This document shows positions 1 to 5,742 of a stretch of DNA of 5,742 nucleotides, piece by piece. A model generated the notes under the pieces. It ran no database searches and was not told the origin of the DNA. It saw only the letters and a program-made list of their open reading frames with translations. The position numbers and the translations under genes were made by a program. The DNA comes from a virus (taxonomy: Duplodnaviria; Heunggongvirae; Uroviricota; Caudoviricetes): the IMG/VR virus record IMGVR_UViG_2663762627_000004, one strand, 5' to 3'. Numbering within the stretch: position 1 is the first letter of the stretch; every line of letters begins with the position of its first letter.

Positions 1-249
1 CTGGCATCAACAGGAAGTACAGGCGACTCGTATGACAACGCGATGGCGGAGAGCATCAATGGTCTTTACAAAGCGGAGGTAATACACCGTAAGAGCTGGA
101 AAAACCGTGCAGAAGTGGAACTGGCCACACTCACGTGGGTGGACTGGTATAACAATCGACGATTGCTGGAAAGGCTGGGCCATACTCCTCCGGCAGAAGC
201 AGAAAAAGCTTATTATGCTTCCATCGGAAACGATGATCTGGCAGCCTGA
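1..249 (+). CDS. IS3-family transposase OrfB (DDE integrase-like), C-terminal fragment; 5' end lies outside the window
   Basis: Open frame from base 1 to TGA at 247-249, in the same frame as the listed 43..249 ORF. The YDNAMAES...INGLYKAE...WVDWYNNRRL motif block is typical of IS3-family OrfB C-termini. Confidence 0.8.
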   Translation: MASTGSTGDSYDNAMAESINGLYKAEVIHRKSWKNRAEVELATLTWVDWYNNRRLLERLGHTPPAEAEKAYYASIGNDDLAA

Positions 250-291
250 GTTCACAGATAAAACACTCTCCAGGAAACCCGGGGCGGTTCA
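1..291 (+). mobile_element. 3' part of an IS3-family insertion sequence (IS51/IS6110-like subgroup) including its right terminal inverted repeat; the element continues upstream of the window
   Basis: Frame-1 translation from position 1 is a transposase OrfB C-terminus (GDSYDNAMAESINGLYKAEVIH...WVDWYNNRRL), stop at 247-249. The stretch 264-291 (CACTCTCCAGGAAACCCGGGGCGGTTCA) ends in CCGGGGCGGTTCA, the reverse complement of the TGAACCGCCCCGG-type terminal repeat I recall for IS6110-like elements. Exact IS name not determined. Confidence 0.6.
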
Positions 292-785
292 CAATAGGTG
301 CAATATTTTTCGATCCGCAAACCGGAGATATGGGACCGGAATTTAGTAAGACTATCGATCTGGAAACTGCTGGCGGAGTCATTGATCGGGACACCATTAA
401 ATGGTGGCTTAAGCAATCACGCGAAGCGCAATCTGCCATTATGACCGATGAAATCCCGTTAGATGATGCACTGTTACAATTGCGAGAATTTATCGACGAA
501 AACTCCGGTGAATTTTTTGTTCAGGTTTGGGGAAATGGAGCCAACTTCGACAACACGATTTTGCGCCGTTCATACGAACGGCAGGGGATCCCCTGCCCGT
601 GGCGTTACTACAACGATCGCGATGTACGCACAATCGTTGAGCTGGGGAAAGCCATAGACTTCGATGCCAGAACGGCTATTCCATTCGAAGGTGAGCGCCA
701 TAATGCACTTGATGACGCCCGTTACCAGGCAAAATACGTTTCAGTTATCTGGCAAAAACTGATCCCGAGTCAGGCTGATTCTTAA
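292..785 (+). pseudogene. DnaQ-like (DEDDh) 3'-5' exonuclease of phage origin, 5'-truncated by the IS insertion
   Basis: The listed ORF 330..785 carries an Exo II-like motif (WGNGANFD) and an Exo III-like motif (HNALDDARYQAKY). The same frame stays open upstream to the IS end and encodes IGAIFFDPQTGD, which resembles the strand that normally follows the Exo I motif, so the Exo I D-x-E residues and the native start appear to be missing. The ATG at 330 has GGAG only 2 nt upstream, a poor spacing for a start. Confidence 0.5.
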
Positions 786-796
786 TGTTCAACTGT

Positions 797-828
797 CGCC
801 GGTTGTGACTGGTATTCTGCAACCGGCG
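797..828. repeat. Perfect 9-bp inverted repeat (CGCCGGTTG / CAACCGGCG) with a 14-nt spacer between the exonuclease remnant and the excisionase gene; possible stem-loop or protein-binding site
   Basis: Read directly: arms at 797-805 and 820-828. No T-run follows on either strand, so it is not a canonical intrinsic terminator. Confidence 0.4.
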
Positions 829-857
829 CTCGTCTGATGTAAGAGATAAAGAAATCG

Positions 858-1109
858 ATGAGCGAAGTAATCATGATTGTCTCTCCCGGCAAATGGGTAT
901 CCGAAGAGCAGTTAATTGCGCTGAAAGGAATAAAAAAAGGTACGTTAAAAAAGGCCCGGGAAAAATCGTTTATGGAAGGAAGGGAATATAAGCATGTCGC
1001 TCATGACGGTATGCCATGGGATAACAGTCCATGCTTTTACAACCTGGAAGAAATTGATCGCTGGATTGAGCGCCAGGCATCAGCGAGACCAAGACGTCAT
1101 CTTACTTGA
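858..1109 (+). CDS. xis: Putative excisionase (Xis-like small DNA-binding protein)
   Basis: 83-aa ORF immediately upstream of and co-oriented with the integrase (stop at 1107-1109, 34 nt before the integrase start). It contains a GREY motif (FMEGREYKH), as in the wing of lambda Xis, and is basic. The start is ambiguous: ATG at 858 or ATG at 873, both with weak ribosome-binding sites. Confidence 0.55.
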   Translation: MSEVIMIVSPGKWVSEEQLIALKGIKKGTLKKAREKSFMEGREYKHVAHDGMPWDNSPCFYNLEEIDRWIERQASARPRRHLT

Positions 1110-1143
1110 CTAAAAGCCACACTAACTAATGAGAGAAGTTGAA

Positions 1144-2424
1144 ATGAAATATCCGACAGGCGTGGAAAACCATGGAGGGAAATTACGTATCTGGTTTGTT
1201 TATAAAGACGTAAGAGTCAGGGAAAATCTGGGGGTTCCTGACACAGCAAAAAACAGGCGCGTTGCAGGTGAACTACGCTCCTCTGTTTGTTACGCAATAA
1301 AAACTGGTGTTTTCGACTATGCAAAACAGTTTCCCTCCTCACGCAATCTGGAAAAATTTGGTGAGGCCCGACAAGATTTAACCATAAAAGAACTGGCTGA
1401 AAAATTTCTGGCACTGAAAGAAACTGAAGTCGCCAAAACATCACTCAACACATACCGTGCCGTCATCAAAAATATCCTGAGCATAATCGGTGAAAAAAAT
1501 CTTGCCTCATCGATTAATAAAGAAAAATTACTGGAGGTTCGTAAAGAGTTACTGACTGGATACCAGATCCCCAAAAGTAACTATATTGTTACACAACCAG
1601 GGAGATCGGCTGTAACTGTAAATAATTACATGACAAATCTTAACGCCGTGTTCCAGTTTGGTGTTGATAACGGTTACCTGGCAGATAATCCGTTTAAGGG
1701 GATCTCGCCATTAAAGGAATCAAGAACCATTCCGGATCCTCTTTCGCGGGAAGAATTTATCCGTCTTATCGATGCGTGCAGAAATCAGCAAGCAAAAAAT
1801 TTATGGTGTGTTTCTGTTTATACTGGAGTTCGCCCTGGTGAGCTGTGTGCACTTGGATGGGAGGACATAGATCTGAAAAATGGAACAATGATGATCAGGA
1901 GAAATTTAGCAAAAGACCGTTTCACGGTACCAAAAACACAGGCGGGAACCAATCGGGTCATTCATCTTATTAAGCCAGCAATCGACGCTCTCCGGAGTCA
2001 GATGACATTAACGAGACTGAGCAAAGAGCATATCATTGATGTTCACCTCAGAGAGTATGGCAGAACAGAAAAACAAAAATGCACCTTTGTTTTTCAACCT
2101 GAAGTGTCAGCGAGAGTAAAAAATTATGGTGACCATTTTACCGTTGACTCAATAAGGCAGATGTGGGACGCAGCGATAAAACGTGCCGGACTCCGCCATC
2201 GAAAATCATATCAGTCGAGACATACTTATGCCTGCTGGTCGCTGACAGCTGGTGCTAACCCGGCATTTATAGCAAACCAGATGGGCCATGCAGATGCGCA
2301 AATGGTATTTCAGGTATACGGAAAATGGATGTCTGAAAACAATAATGCACAGGTAGCTTTGTTAAATACACAGTTAAGCGAGTTTGCCCCAACCATGCCC
2401 CATAACGAAGCAATGAAAAATTAA
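1144..2424 (+). CDS. intQ: Phage integrase, tyrosine recombinase family; apparently full length
   Basis: Long ORF ending at TAA 2422-2424. Catalytic-region motifs are present: TGVRPGEL (box I Arg), SRHTYA (H-x-x-R region) and MGHADAQMVFQVYGKW (C-terminal catalytic Tyr). Start chosen at ATG 1144 (MKYPTGVENHGG), which has GAGAGAAG 5-12 nt upstream; the in-frame ATG at 1129 has no ribosome-binding site. The symbol is by position next to rspB, as I recall for the K-12 Qin prophage, and is not sequence-verified. Confidence 0.88.
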   Translation: MKYPTGVENHGGKLRIWFVYKDVRVRENLGVPDTAKNRRVAGELRSSVCYAIKTGVFDYAKQFPSSRNLEKFGEARQDLTIKELAEKFLALKETEVAKTSLNTYRAVIKNILSIIGEKNLASSINKEKLLEVRKELLTGYQIPKSNYIVTQPGRSAVTVNNYMTNLNAVFQFGVDNGYLADNPFKGISPLKESRTIPDPLSREEFIRLIDACRNQQAKNLWCVSVYTGVRPGELCALGWEDIDLKNGTMMIRRNLAKDRFTVPKTQAGTNRVIHLIKPAIDALRSQMTLTRLSKEHIIDVHLREYGRTEKQKCTFVFQPEVSARVKNYGDHFTVDSIRQMWDAAIKRAGLRHRKSYQSRHTYACWSLTAGANPAFIANQMGHADAQMVFQVYGKWMSENNNAQVALLNTQLSEFAPTMPHNEAMKN

Positions 2425-2439
2425 TTTAATATTTATCAA

Positions 2440-2475
2440 ATAGTTAACACGCATGACTCTTGAAATCCATAAATT
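2440..2475. other. Approximate prophage/host junction (attR core region)
   Basis: Inferred from where the minus-strand transporter N-terminus stops looking transporter-like (after EFMDF, codon 31 at 2462-2464) and from the integrase stop at 2424. The core sequence itself cannot be defined without the other prophage end or an empty site. Confidence 0.3.
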
Positions 2476-2554
2476 CAAGCGCAGTGCCCAGCCATCCCGA
2501 TACTGCTGCTTTCACCAAATCCTTAGTGCTTCTTTCGTGTTTTTCTATTGTCAT
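2444..2554 (-). pseudogene. ydfJ: 5' stub of a ydfJ-like MFS (metabolite:H+ symporter family) transporter gene, truncated by prophage integration
   Basis: Minus-strand ORF not in the supplied track: ATG at 2554-2552, 36 codons (MTIEKHERSTKDLVKAAVSGWLGTALEFMDFKSHAC), stop at 2446-2444. The A-A-x-x-G-x-x-x-E-F-x-D-F block matches the conserved N-terminal motif of ProP/KgtP-type transporters. A GAGA ribosome-binding site lies about 9 nt upstream. The gene sits directly downstream of rspB on the same strand. Confidence 0.55.
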
Positions 2555-2567
2555 AATGGTTATCTCT

Positions 2568-2598
2568 AAAAAAGAGGTAAGATGCGTACTACTTACTC
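2568..2598 (-). terminator. Possible intrinsic terminator or attenuator between rspB and the transporter stub
   Basis: On the minus strand an imperfect hairpin (GAGTAAG ... CTTACCTC, about 7 bp with one bulge, 10-nt loop) is followed directly by TTTTTT (plus-strand A-run 2568-2573), starting 13 nt after the rspB stop. Confidence 0.3.
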
Positions 2599-2611
2599 GC
2601 CGTTATTGGTA

Positions 2612-3631
2612 TTATTCAGAAAAAGTGAGTAAGACTTTGCAGCAATGTTTTTGATCCTGTTCAAATAAACTAATGGCATCAGCAACATGCTGGAAATCAA
2701 ACGTATGGGTAATTAATTTTTCTGGTTTAATTAACCCTTTACTTAACCAGTCGATAACGACCGGAAATTTATTTGCATTTAAGCGTGAAGAAAAAATAGA
2801 GAGTTCTTTTCCGGTAATTCCTTGCTGAATCACTTCAGACGGTTCACTGGAGAAGCCCATCAATACAATACGTGCCGCTGGAGAAGCCAGCGTTACGGCC
2901 TCTTTCAGGATAGAAGGATGACAAGCCGCATCGATAATTAATGTCGGCTTGATGCCTTTTTCAGTGAAAATCTCGCCAAGCGGTGTCTGGCTGTTATTAA
3001 TCGCCCAGTCAGCCCCGCTCTCTTTCGCTTTTTCCAGTCGTTCATCAATGCGATCGGCAACAATCACATTTTTAACGTTATAGACGCCTTTTAATACCTG
3101 AACGATCGTCAGGCCGATTGGACCGGCACCATAAACCAGAACGGTATCATTTTCAGTCGGTTGACCATGACCGGTTACGTTAGCCGCAATGGTAAAAGGT
3201 TCGATCATCACCGCATATTGATCGGCCACTGCTTCAGGAATTTTCCACGCATTTTTTGCCGGAACCACGGCATATTCACTGAAACCACCGTCAGCGTGCA
3301 CACCTAATACAGCCAGTGTCGTACAAACGTTCGGTTTACCTATAGAGCACGGATAGCAATGCCCACAGCTGACCACCGGATCGACAGCAACACGTTCACC
3401 GACTCTGGCGCTTTCCACGCCGTCACCCACTGCATCAATGACGCCAAAGAATTCATGACCAATGACGCGCGGATATTTCGCAAAAGGATTATGCCCACGA
3501 TAAATATGGCTATCTGAACCACAAATTCCGGCAAGTTTCACTTTTACTCGTACTTCACCCGCTGACGGGGTGGGTATTTCACGTTCGACAATCGCCAGTT
3601 GATTCGGTTTTTCAATTAATATGCTTTTCAT
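2612..3631 (-). CDS. rspB: Zn-dependent medium-chain alcohol/sugar-acid dehydrogenase RspB (starvation-sensing protein B)
   Basis: 339-aa product starting MKSILIEKPNQLAIVERE, with a catalytic-Zn motif (GICGSDSH, GHEFFG), a structural-Zn Cys cluster (CGHCYPCSIGKPNVC) and a Rossmann motif (VYGAGPIG). Start set at the internal ATG 3631-3629 because it has GGAG about 10 nt upstream, whereas the track's upstream ATG (3655) lies inside rspA. The gap to the rspA stop is 11 nt, so the two are co-transcribed. Confidence 0.93.
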   Translation of the reverse strand: MKSILIEKPNQLAIVEREIPTPSAGEVRVKVKLAGICGSDSHIYRGHNPFAKYPRVIGHEFFGVIDAVGDGVESARVGERVAVDPVVSCGHCYPCSIGKPNVCTTLAVLGVHADGGFSEYAVVPAKNAWKIPEAVADQYAVMIEPFTIAANVTGHGQPTENDTVLVYGAGPIGLTIVQVLKGVYNVKNVIVADRIDERLEKAKESGADWAINNSQTPLGEIFTEKGIKPTLIIDAACHPSILKEAVTLASPAARIVLMGFSSEPSEVIQQGITGKELSIFSSRLNANKFPVVIDWLSKGLIKPEKLITHTFDFQHVADAISLFEQDQKHCCKVLLTFSE

Positions 3632-3642
3632 TATCTTACTCC

Positions 3643-4857
3643 TTACCAGTTCCACAGCGTGCCATCTTCCAGACGTGCGACTGGTAGATAAGCAGGTTCA
3701 TAGGGATATTTCGCCGCCAGCTTTTCATCGAATTCGATACCAAGACCCGGTTTGTCTCCCGGATGCATATAGCCGTTATCGAAAGTCCAGTTGTGCGGGA
3801 AGACTTCGAGCATTTGTTCGGAATAACCCATGTATTCCTGGACACCGAAATTGGGGACCCACAGATCAAAGTGCAGCGCCGCAGCCATGCAGACTGGTGA
3901 CAAATCGGAAGGACCGTGTGAGCCAGTACGTACCTGATACAGCGAAGCAAAATCGGCAATCCGGCGCATACCGGTAATTCCGCCTGCATGGGTCAGCGTG
4001 GTGCGGATATAATCGATGAGTTGCTCTTCAATCAGTTGTTTGCAGTCCCAGATGCTGTTGAAGACTTCACCCACTGCGATGGGTGTGACGGTATGTTGGC
4101 GAATGAGACGGAAGCATTCCTGGTTTTCCGCAGGCGTCGGGTCTTCCATCCAGAACATGCGATAATCTTCAATGCTTTTACCAAAGCGCGCCGCTTCAAT
4201 AGGCGTTAAGCGATGGTGCATGTCATGCAGCAAATGTTCATTAAAACCAAACTTGTTACGTACCGCGTCAAACAATTTCGGCATGAAATCGAGGTATTTC
4301 TCCGTCGACCACAGCTGCTCTTCCGGCCACTGTCCTTTGGTTGCGGGTTCATAAGCCAGACCTTTACCTTTCGACATGCCGTAGGTGGTTTTCATACCAG
4401 GGATTCCGCACTGCACGCGGATGGCTTTGAATCCCAGCTCCTGATGACGGGCATAATCATCCAGAGCTTCATCAATACTGTGACCGGTGGTATGGCAATA
4501 AACCATCACCCCTTCACGAGACGCGCCGCCGAGTAACTGGTAAAGCGGCATGTTGGCAGCTTTGGCTTTAATATCCCACAGCGCCATATCAACCGCTGAA
4601 ATGGCCGACATCGTAACCGGACCGCGACGCCAGTAAGCACCTTTATAGAAAAACTGCCAGATATCTTCGATACGGTGCGCATCGCGACCAATAAGCTGCG
4701 GACAAAGGTGATCCTGCAAATAAGAGGCCACGGAAAGCTCACGTCCATTGAGGGTGGCATCCCCAAGGCCCGTAATACCGTCCTCAGTGGTGATTTTTAA
4801 CGTGACGAAATTACGCCCCGGACAGGTAACAAAAACTTCAGCCTTTACGATCTTCAT
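3643..4857 (-). CDS. rspA: Enolase-superfamily D-mannonate dehydratase-like protein RspA (starvation-sensing protein A)
   Basis: 404-aa product starting [27 protein letters not shown] and ending LEDGTLWNW, recognisable as RspA (mandelate racemase / muconate lactonizing enzyme fold). Start set at ATG 4857-4855 with AAGGAA about 7 nt upstream; the track's extension to 4890 adds 11 residues with no ribosome-binding site. Confidence 0.95.
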
Positions 4858-5062
4858 GTTCGATTCCTTGCATCGCTTGTCGTGATGCATGAAATCTACG
4901 CAACTGAACTACTACCATACAAGTATGAAGATCGAAAAAAGCCGGAGTGATCACAAAAAAAGGCGTATATTTGCGCTGTGAATGGTTGACAAAAGATGAA
5001 ATAGAATACCTTTTGTCAGCTGACACTTCCTCGTATCTTATTGATAAAATGGATTTATGTTC
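4858..5062 (-). promoter_or_regulatory. rspA upstream control region with palindromic candidate operator sites
   Basis: Contains a perfect 12-bp palindrome TGTCAGCTGACA (5014-5025), an 8-bp palindrome GTGATCAC (4947-4954), and a minus-strand TTGTCA-17 bp-TATACG pair (-35 at 4992-4987, -10 at 4969-4964) as a weak sigma-70 candidate. No experimental mapping is available to me; the sites are candidates only. Confidence 0.3.
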
Positions 5063-5389
5063 CTACGTGCGCCCCCAGCCCGCAACAATGATCAACATGC
5101 CGCAAAGCGCAATCAACGCCCCCGTCCAGTCATAAAGACTTAGTTTCACGCCATCCACAACGCGCAGCCACATCAACGCCGTGCAGACATAAACGCCACC
5201 ATAAGCCGCGTAAACACGCCCACTCGCCGCAGGATGCAACGTTAACAACCAAACAAACAGCGCCAGTGAAATCCCCGCCGGAAGCAACAGCCAGATACTG
5301 GCGTTTCGTTTTAACCACAACCAGGGCAGAAAGCATCCAATAATTTCACACAGCGCAGTAGCAAAAAATAGTAACGTTGTTTTAATCAT
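5063..5389 (-). CDS. ynfA: Small inner-membrane protein YnfA (UPF0060 family, four predicted TM helices)
   Basis: 108-aa hydrophobic product [26 protein letters not shown] ... IIVAGWGRT, stop TAG at 5065-5063. Start set at ATG 5389-5387; the track's longer ORF begins at a GTG 9 nt further upstream (5398). Confidence 0.88.
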
Positions 5390-5465
5390 CTTTGTCACTT
5401 ATTGACATCATGTATAGTTATAGGGCGACATAATATCATCAATATAAACACCCTCCTGGTACGTT

Positions 5466-5492
5466 TTGCGTTCGCAGTGGATGGTGTAGAAT
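5466..5492 (+). promoter_or_regulatory. Candidate sigma-70 promoter for ynfB
   Basis: TTGCGT (5466-5471), a 15-nt spacer, then TAGAAT (5487-5492) with TG immediately upstream, about 30 nt before the ynfB ATG. AGGGAA at 5512-5517 is a plausible Shine-Dalgarno 6 nt before the ATG at 5524. The spacer is shorter than optimal. Confidence 0.3.
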
Positions 5493-5523
5493 CACCTTTA
5501 ATCATTCATACAGGGAATGAATT

Positions 5524-5667
5524 ATGAAAATCACTCTCAGCAAACGAATCGGCCTGCTCGCTTTTCTGCTGCCTTGCGCACTGGCATTGAGCACAACTGT
5601 TCATGCCGAAACTAACAAACTGGTGATTGAGTCTGGCGACAGNNCANNNANCCNNCAGNNCNCNGCN
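5524..5667 (+). CDS. ynfB: Secreted small protein YnfB (UPF0482 family), 5' portion only; frame runs into ambiguous bases
   Basis: ATG at 5524 with a good ribosome-binding site. The product [28 protein letters not shown]|[11 protein letters not shown] has a classic signal peptide. Codons through the N cluster (AGN NCA NNN ANC CNN CAG NNC NCN GCN) are compatible with SAQSRQHAA, the continuation I recall for YnfB. Sequence after 5667 does not continue the remembered YnfB sequence in any forward frame. Confidence 0.65.
5643..5667. other. Cluster of 13 ambiguous (N) bases interleaved with called bases
   Basis: Read directly from the sequence; this is the only place in the window with N characters. 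Confidence 0.95.
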
Positions 5668-5742
5668 CACTGCCTGTACCGGTTCGCTGCCCGCTGTCGG
5701 TTATCAGGATCTGTACGTTATGGCGTGCGGCACCGTCCAGCA

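What the first reader, a model, noticed from the sequence alone, without database searches (positions are those of the whole stretch)
1..330. IS3-family element inserted into the prophage early region, with a recognisable right inverted repeat ending at 291
The transposase reading frame ends at 249, and the element appears to end 42 bp later with ...CCGGGGCGGTTCA (279-291), matching the terminal repeat type of IS51/IS6110-like IS3-family elements. The boundary falls inside the reading frame of the downstream exonuclease gene. From memory, K-12 carries an IS2 at roughly this position in Qin, so an IS of a different subgroup here would be an independent insertion into the same prophage region.
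Basis: partly seen in the sequence, partly recalled or inferred. Interest (0 to 1): 0.45.

Follow-up and report, generated by a model that had tools for sequence, protein, structure and literature searches.

The report
IS629 insertion in prophage exonuclease gene
The first 291 bases of the window are the right end of the common insertion sequence IS629 (IS3 family), which interrupts the exonuclease gene of a Qin-like cryptic prophage of E. coli; this is an ordinary, strain-specific mobile-element insertion.

Summary

- **The element.** Window 1-249 encodes the last 82 codons plus stop of an IS3-family transposase (orfB). The element ends at base 291 with ...CCGGGGCGGTTCA. Bases 1-291 are 100% identical to copies in thousands of E. 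coli and Shigella replicons. Full-length relatives are 1310 bp with 3-bp target duplications, so this belongs to the IS629 group (isoforms IS629, IS1203, IS3411).
- **The target.** From base 292 the sequence is nt 1979 onward of a 2472-nt (823-aa) prophage 3'-5' exonuclease gene that is intact in other strains. The break falls in codon 660. It cuts off the start of the exonuclease domain, including its DLET motif.
- **Uniqueness.** This exact junction occurs in none of 5,426 complete E. coli genomes. Other strains carry independent IS insertions 7 bp upstream (IS1203), 11 bp downstream (IS66 family) and elsewhere in the gene.
- **K-12.** K-12 carries a 706-bp IS2 remnant about 1.2 kb further upstream, associated with a deletion. 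That is a separate event.
- **Not checkable here.** The left end and the target duplication (predicted CAA or CAAT) lie outside the window.

The element is already known and the interest is low.

The parts
1..249 (+). 3' end of the IS629-group transposase gene (orfB part of OrfAB): last 82 codons plus TGA stop at 247-249
   Evidence: ORF and translation. Pfam rve_3/rve_2 and NCBIfam NF033516 positions 304-369/369. DNA is 100% identical to copies annotated 'IS3 family transposase' with programmed frameshift.
250..291 (+). 3' non-coding end of the IS. The 25-nt right inverted repeat is 267-291 (tctccaggaaacccggggcggttca), ending in the family-typical CA.
   Evidence: The reverse complement TGAACCGCCCCGGGTTTCCTGGAGA matches the left ends of full-length 1310-bp copies at 23/25 (L016/L018/L019 type) or 22/25 (L001/L017 type), by my comparison of the strings. 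IS matches in other contexts stop at 291/292.
292..295 (+). First bases of the target. Predicted right-hand copy of the 3-bp (CAA) or 4-bp (CAAT) target-site duplication.
   Evidence: This is an inference only. IS629 makes 3-4 bp duplications (PMC3271280), and relatives in L001, L017 and L018 have 3-bp duplications. The left copy lies outside the window.
292..785 (+). 3' remnant (nt 1979-2472) of a Qin-like prophage 3'-5' exonuclease gene. The longest remaining ORF is 330-785 (151 aa).
   Evidence: 100% identical to L002 from position 4001 onward. Pfam PF16473 Rv2179c-like matches profile positions 33-177/177 in the remnant, against 2-177 in the intact 823-aa protein (residues 642-813).
858..1109 (+). 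Excisionase gene of the prophage (context, intact)
   Evidence: Pfam DUF1233, putative excisionase, E 1.6e-31. RefSeq annotation of identical loci.
1129..2424 (+). Tyrosine integrase gene of the prophage (context, intact, 431 aa), followed by the chromosomal genes rspB, rspA, ynfA and ynfB
   Evidence: Pfam Arm-DNA-bind_2 plus Phage_integrase. Gene order matches L001, L002 and K-12.

Best explanation
Window 1-291 is the right end of an IS629-group insertion sequence (IS3 family, 1310 bp when complete). It has transposed into the 3'-5' exonuclease gene of a Qin-like lambdoid prophage sitting next to rspB.

**Mechanism (from established knowledge of the family).** The OrfAB transposase is made by a programmed -1 frameshift. 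It excises a copy as a circle (copy-out, paste-in) and integrates it, duplicating 3-4 bp of the target.

**Shown here.**
- The right junction falls between nt 1978 and 1979 of the 2472-nt gene, in codon 660 of 823.
- The element lies in the same orientation as the gene.
- The break separates the N-terminal 660 residues, including the DLET motif at residues 646-649 at the very start of the Rv2179c-like exonuclease domain, from the remaining 163 codons.

**Inferred.**
- The event was a simple insertion with a CAA or CAAT duplication. The left end was not seen.
- The 151-aa ORF left downstream (330-785) lacks the first ~32 profile positions of the domain, so it is predicted to be catalytically dead.
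- The insertion is a strain-specific pseudogenising event in a cryptic prophage.
For: - Transposase C-terminus, stop at 247-249 and IS3-family domains.
- 100% identity of 1-291 to copies in thousands of E. coli and Shigella replicons, with matches ending at 291/292.
- Full-length relatives are 1310 bp with TGAACCGCCCCGG...CCGGGGCGGTTCA ends. L001, L017 and L018 have 3-bp duplications.
- RefSeq annotates these copies as 'IS3-like element IS1203 family transposase, programmed frameshift'.
- IS1203 and IS3411 are isoforms of IS629. IS629 makes 3-4 bp duplications and sits on prophages in 62% of cases in O157:H7: PMC3271280.
- Empty-site alleles read ...gatcatct|caataggtg and match the window at 100% from 292 to 5642.
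- Domain boundaries in the intact and the remnant protein.
- No sigma-70-like promoter is predicted at or near the junction.
Against: - The left end of the element and the second copy of the target duplication are outside the window. A simple insertion is therefore inferred, not shown.
- In one relative (L016) the same kind of IS in this gene has an unrelated left flank. K-12's IS2E marks a deletion. IS-associated rearrangements do occur at this locus.
- The source assembly is a draft with at least one chimeric join, at the window's 3' end.
- No ISfinder comparison was possible. The name rests on RefSeq annotation, literature and element anatomy.
Confidence: 0.87

Rival explanations
1. The IS copy marks the edge of an IS-mediated deletion, inversion or recombination between two IS629 copies. 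The DNA on its far (left) side would then not be the upstream part of the exonuclease gene, and there would be no target duplication.
For: - L016 (strain Z1323HEC0011) has a 1310-bp copy in this gene whose left flank is unrelated DNA next to a methyltransferase gene.
- K-12's IS2E remnant joins ydfE directly to a truncated intQ.
- L019 has an imperfect duplication, gaa versus caa.
- The window contains nothing upstream of the IS.
Against: - L001, L017 and L018, three of the five full-length comparators, are simple insertions with perfect 3-bp duplications; L019 is also flanked by the gene on both sides but its duplication is imperfect.
- Nothing in the window points to a rearrangement. The right junction looks the same under either reading.
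Confidence: 0.18
2. The 291/292 junction is an assembly artefact: a chimeric join of an IS-containing contig end to the prophage contig. On this reading it is not a real adjacency in the genome.
For: - The 3' end of the window is clearly chimeric. ynfB sequence stops at 5642, 5644-5667 is littered with N, and 5668-5742 is 98.7% identical to F-plasmid traI.
- Many draft contigs from other assemblies break at almost the same position inside this IS. The window start is therefore probably a repeat-induced contig end.
Against: - The join falls exactly at the terminal CA of the element, with no N and no extra bases, as a true transposition junction does.
- A random misjoin would rarely hit that base.
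- Assemblers extend from unique flank into a repeat only along reads that actually span the boundary.
Confidence: 0.03
3. The window's junction derives from the insertion seen in strain AUSMDU00014361 (L001, duplication ATC, 7 bp upstream), followed by loss of the 7 bp atcatct next to the IS. On this reading it is not an independent transposition.
For: The same gene, the same orientation and only 7 bp of separation.
Against: - The IS tails differ at 4 of 291 positions. L001's copy is the IS1203-labelled subtype, which differs from the subtype sharing the window's tail at 32-50 of 1310 positions.
- The flanking 5.3 kb is only 97.3% identical to L001, against 99.9-100% to lineages with an intact gene.
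Confidence: 0.02

Closest known systems
IS629 and its isoforms IS1203 and IS3411 (IS3 family; Shigella sonnei and E. coli O111/O157)
   Same: - The 291-bp tail is identical to copies on Shigella flexneri pWR501, a S. sonnei plasmid and many E. coli replicons.
- It is 98.6% identical to RefSeq 'IS1203 family' copies.
- It has the same terminal repeat. Full-length relatives have the same 1310-bp length, orfA/orfB frameshift organisation and 3-bp duplications.
- It shows the same preference for prophage DNA (PMC3271280).
   Different: Nothing in kind. This particular insertion site was found in none of 5,426 complete E. coli genomes. Sub-type assignment (I, II or III of PMC3271280) cannot be made from 291 bases without reference sequences.
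IS6110 of the Mycobacterium tuberculosis complex (IS3 family)
   Same: - The terminal 13 nt, TGAACCGCCCCGG, are identical in both IS6110 inverted repeats.
- It also makes 3-4 bp duplications, uses a -1 frameshift and transposes by copy-out, paste-in (PMC5896891).
   Different: A different element and host. Beyond the 13 terminal bases the repeats diverge: IS6110 continues CATGTCCGGAGACTC or TGAGTCCGGAGACTC, whereas this element continues GTTTCCTGGAGAG.
IS2E remnant in the Qin prophage of E. coli K-12 MG1655 (between ydfE and intQ)
   Same: Also an IS3-family element disrupting the homologous prophage exonuclease gene (ydfE) at the same chromosomal prophage locus next to rspB.
   Different: - It is IS2, not IS629, and only a 706-bp remnant (insD7 pseudogene).
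- It starts about nt 766 of ydfE, roughly 1.2 kb upstream of the site used here.
- It is associated with loss of the rest of the exonuclease gene, the excisionase gene and the start of intQ. All of these are intact in this window.

Membership tests
IS3 family insertion sequence | DDE (rve-type) transposase | tested here: met
   Only the C-terminal 82 residues are in the window. They match rve_3 (E 1.3e-12), rve_2 (E 1.9e-07) and NF033516 'IS3 family transposase' positions 304-369/369 (E 8.6e-20). The score of 71 bits is below the whole-protein cut-off of 160 because this is a fragment.
IS3 family insertion sequence | Ends 5'-TG...CA-3' with imperfect terminal inverted repeats | tested here: met
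   The right end only. It finishes ...GGTTCA at 291. Bases 267-291 are complementary at 22-23 of 25 positions to the left ends of full-length copies in other genomes. The left end of this copy is outside the window.
IS3 family insertion sequence | orfA and orfB in relative phase -1, fused by programmed frameshifting | not testable with these tools
   This part lies outside the window. Full-length copies whose tails are identical to the window (L016, L019) are annotated with a programmed frameshift and a pseudoknot.
IS3 family insertion sequence | 3-4 bp target-site duplication | not testable with these tools
   The left junction is not in the window and the source genome was not found. Relatives L001, L017 and L018 have perfect 3-bp duplications.
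IS629 (isoform group IS629/IS1203/IS3411) | Nucleotide identity to the reference element at isoform level over the element | tested here: inconclusive
   No ISfinder reference was available. Surrogates:
- 100% identity over 291 nt to copies on the Shigella plasmids pWR501 and a S. sonnei plasmid, and in thousands of E. coli records.
- 98.6% identity to copies RefSeq names IS1203 family.
- Only 22% of the element can be compared.
IS629 (isoform group IS629/IS1203/IS3411) | 1310-bp length | not testable with these tools
   The window starts inside the element. All five full-length comparators measure 1310 bp.
Rv2179c-like / DEDD 3'-5' exonuclease (the interrupted target gene) | Complete exonuclease domain including the N-terminal acidic motif | tested here: not met
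   The intact homologue matches PF16473 positions 2-177 (residues 642-813). The remnant ORF 330-785 matches only positions 33-177. The MIDLET motif (residues 644-649) lies upstream of the junction (translation). The window therefore holds a truncated pseudogene, not a functional member.

The most novel reading that the evidence does not exclude
The 3' third of this prophage exonuclease gene may be a recurrent target for insertional inactivation. Within a 26-bp stretch, three lineages carry three independent IS insertions:
- IS1203 with duplication ATC at nt 1972-1974 (L001);
- the IS629-type copy of this window, whose flank starts at nt 1979;
- an IS66-family element with the 8-bp duplication ATATTTTT at nt 1990-1997 (L008).

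At least four further IS629-group copies lie within 720 bp upstream (L016-L019). This could reflect a local target preference, or selection to knock out the exonuclease domain of a cryptic prophage.
Probability: 0.12. Interest if true: 0.3.

Novelty: already known. Interest (0 to 1): 0.08.

Why it matters
It matters little beyond bookkeeping. IS629 is among the best-known E. coli and Shigella insertion sequences and is known to favour prophage DNA. Its disruption of a cryptic-prophage gene is expected.

The junction is useful in two practical ways:
- as a strain- or lineage-specific marker, since it is absent from 5,426 complete genomes;
- as an annotation point. The 151-aa 'exonuclease' ORF downstream is a truncated pseudogene, and the contig ends in a repeat.

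It also confirms that the Qin-type exonuclease gene has been hit by different IS elements independently in different lineages, including K-12.

Tried and rejected
**Searching for the source genome or the same insertion, to see the left end and the duplication.** All attempts were negative.
- A 90-bp junction query against 5,426 complete E. coli genomes.
- A 37-nt exact junction pattern in genome contigs, viral contigs and metagenome contigs.
- Exact-protein look-up of the 151-aa remnant ORF. It returned other kinds of disruption: nonsense mutations, frameshifts, an IS66 insertion and scaffold gaps.
- Exact-protein look-up of the 82-aa partial transposase. It returned other contig ends.
- A junction pattern searched in the 14 loci fetched by then.

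**An outward promoter created at the junction that could drive the remnant ORF, xis and int.** The consensus scan found no site in 1-1200, so I dropped this.

**The IS ending at 288 with 'tca' belonging to the target.** Some BLAST matches start at 289. I rejected this because the empty site reads tct-caat, so 291 is a mismatch. Full-length copies end ...GGTTCA.

**Clustering of nonsense and frameshift mutations just upstream as evidence of a mutational hot spot.** I set this aside as ascertainment bias. Those loci were retrieved precisely because the 151-aa ORF is called separately, which needs a disruption between the preceding in-frame ATG and base 330.

**Large shared-database protein searches and structure prediction.** I did not run them, because nothing in the question depended on them.

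Full report
**What is in the window**

Frame 1 is open from base 1 to a TGA at 247-249. The 82 residues it encodes match the C-terminal integrase-core models rve_3 and rve_2. They also match the last 66 positions of NCBIfam NF033516 'IS3 family transposase'.

Downstream lie four features (with annotation of near-identical loci):
- a 151-aa ORF (330-785) with an Rv2179c-like 3'-5' exonuclease domain;
- an excisionase gene (858-1109);
- a tyrosine integrase gene (1129-2424);
- the chromosomal genes rspB, rspA, ynfA and the start of ynfB.

This is the integrase end of a Qin-like lambdoid prophage at the same chromosomal position as Qin in K-12.

**Where the element ends**

Bases 1-291 are 100% identical to copies in many unrelated chromosomal and plasmid contexts. 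Across the collection, 25,501 places in 4,145 of 5,426 genomes match. With a query spanning the boundary, those matches stop at window 291 or 292. Strains with an uninterrupted exonuclease gene match from 292. Some of them match from 289, but the empty site reads ...gatcatct|caataggtg, so only 'tc' agrees by chance and 291 is a mismatch.

Five full-length copies inserted in the same gene family in other strains each measure 1310 bp. They begin TGAACCGCCCCGG and end CCGGGGCGGTTCA, and three have perfect 3-bp duplications. The right end at 291 is therefore secure.

The 25-nt right repeat is 267-291. It pairs at 22-23 of 25 positions with the left ends of those full-length copies.

**What the element is**

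RefSeq annotates the closely related copies as 'IS3-like element IS1203 family transposase' with a programmed frameshift and pseudoknot. IS1203 and IS3411 are isoforms of IS629. IS629 sub-types differ by 4-5%, it duplicates 3-4 bp, and 62% of its copies in O157:H7 sit on prophages (PMC3271280).

The window's tail compares as follows:
- identical to the tails of the copies in L016 and L019;
- identical to copies on Shigella flexneri pWR501 and a S. sonnei plasmid;
- different at 4 of 291 positions from the IS1203-labelled sub-type.

Both IS6110 inverted repeats begin with the same 13 nt, TGAACCGCCCCGG (PMC5896891). That IS629 and IS6110 both belong to ISfinder's IS51 group is my own knowledge. 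I could not check it here.

**What it interrupts**

In strains such as HCP6S3_I1 (L002) the exonuclease gene is 2472 nt (823 aa) and lies between ydfD and the excisionase gene. That strain is 100% identical to the window over 292-5642.

Window 292 corresponds to nt 1979, the second base of codon 660. The Rv2179c-like domain spans residues 642-813 in the intact protein. The remnant ORF covers only profile positions 33-177 of 177. The segment CDHLMIDLETMGKNPDAPIIS, which carries the acidic D-x-E motif typical of the first motif of DEDD exonucleases (established knowledge), lies upstream of the break (translation). The remnant is therefore best regarded as a pseudogene fragment. No sigma-70-like promoter is predicted at the junction.

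**Is it an independent event?**

Yes.

- No complete E. coli genome has this junction.
- Strain AUSMDU00014361 has an IS1203-type copy 7 bp upstream with duplication ATC. It is a different IS sub-type, and its flank is only 97.3% identical.
- CP024278.1 (L008) has an IS66-family element with an 8-bp duplication ATATTTTT 11 bp downstream.
- Other IS629-group copies lie 234-718 bp upstream in L016-L019. L017 is in a paralogous prophage at ompW.
- K-12 MG1655 carries 'IS2E', a 706-bp IS2 remnant beginning about nt 766 of ydfE and running into a truncated intQ.

**What remains unshown**

The left end and the second copy of the target duplication (predicted CAA at 292-294, or CAAT) are outside the window. 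I could not locate the source assembly. L016 shows an IS629 copy in this gene with an unrelated left flank, and K-12 shows a deletion. I therefore give about 0.18 to the possibility that this copy bounds a rearrangement rather than a simple insertion.

The window comes from a draft assembly. Its last 75 bases are F-plasmid traI, joined to ynfB through an N-littered stretch. Many draft contigs from other assemblies break at nearly the same position inside this IS, so the window start is probably a repeat-induced contig end. The IS/target junction itself falls exactly on the terminal CA without ambiguity codes, which argues strongly that it is real.

**Verdict**

This is a correct and carefully located observation of an ordinary thing: an IS629-group insertion that pseudogenises a cryptic-prophage exonuclease gene. 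The element, its mechanism and its liking for prophages are all already known. Only the exact site is new, as a strain polymorphism.

Noticed in passing
window 5643-5742: ynfB sequence matches E. coli only up to 5642. Positions 5644-5667 are littered with N. Positions 5668-5742 are 98.7% identical to the F-plasmid relaxase gene traI. This looks like a chimeric or misassembled join in a draft assembly rather than biology.
   Followed up: partly
L001 2982-4291; L008 ~3275-5973; window 292-310: Three different IS insertions fall within a 26-bp stretch of the same exonuclease gene in three lineages: IS1203 (duplication ATC, 7 bp upstream), this window's copy, and an IS66-family element (8-bp duplication ATATTTTT = window 303-310). 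This may be a local hot spot, but retrieval was biased.
   Followed up: partly
L003-L006, L009, L010 around locus 5930-5962 (equivalent to 20-30 bp upstream of window 292): Several assemblies carry point disruptions of the exonuclease gene just upstream of the IS site. These are nonsense changes (atg tga; gga taa) and changes in or next to the run of six A in GGGAAAAAATCC. They were retrieved because the 151-aa ORF is called separately, so the clustering is probably ascertainment. Homopolymer sequencing errors are also possible.
   Followed up: partly
L022-L028 position 1-251; window 1: Draft contigs from many independent assemblies start within 2 bases of the window's first base inside IS629, each giving the same 82-aa partial transposase. 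This suggests a shared assembly-graph break point in the IS, perhaps a sub-type SNP nearby. It also suggests that the window begins at a contig end.
   Followed up: no
L021 4178-8249 (GCA_000460835.1, KE702064.1): An IS629-type copy appears to be split by a group II intron. The orfA and orfB N-terminal genes are followed by a reverse transcriptase with RVT_1 and GIIM domains, and then by the same 82-aa transposase C-terminus.
   Followed up: no
L016 1236-2545 (NZ_CP148385.1): An IS629-group copy sits in the same exonuclease gene (right flank starts at gene nt 1666). Its left flank is unrelated DNA next to a SAM-dependent methyltransferase gene, which implies an IS-associated deletion or rearrangement of the prophage in that strain.
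   Followed up: partly
window 858-2424: The excisionase and the 431-aa integrase of this Qin-like prophage are intact here. K-12's intQ is a truncated pseudogene and its excisionase gene is missing.
   Followed up: no
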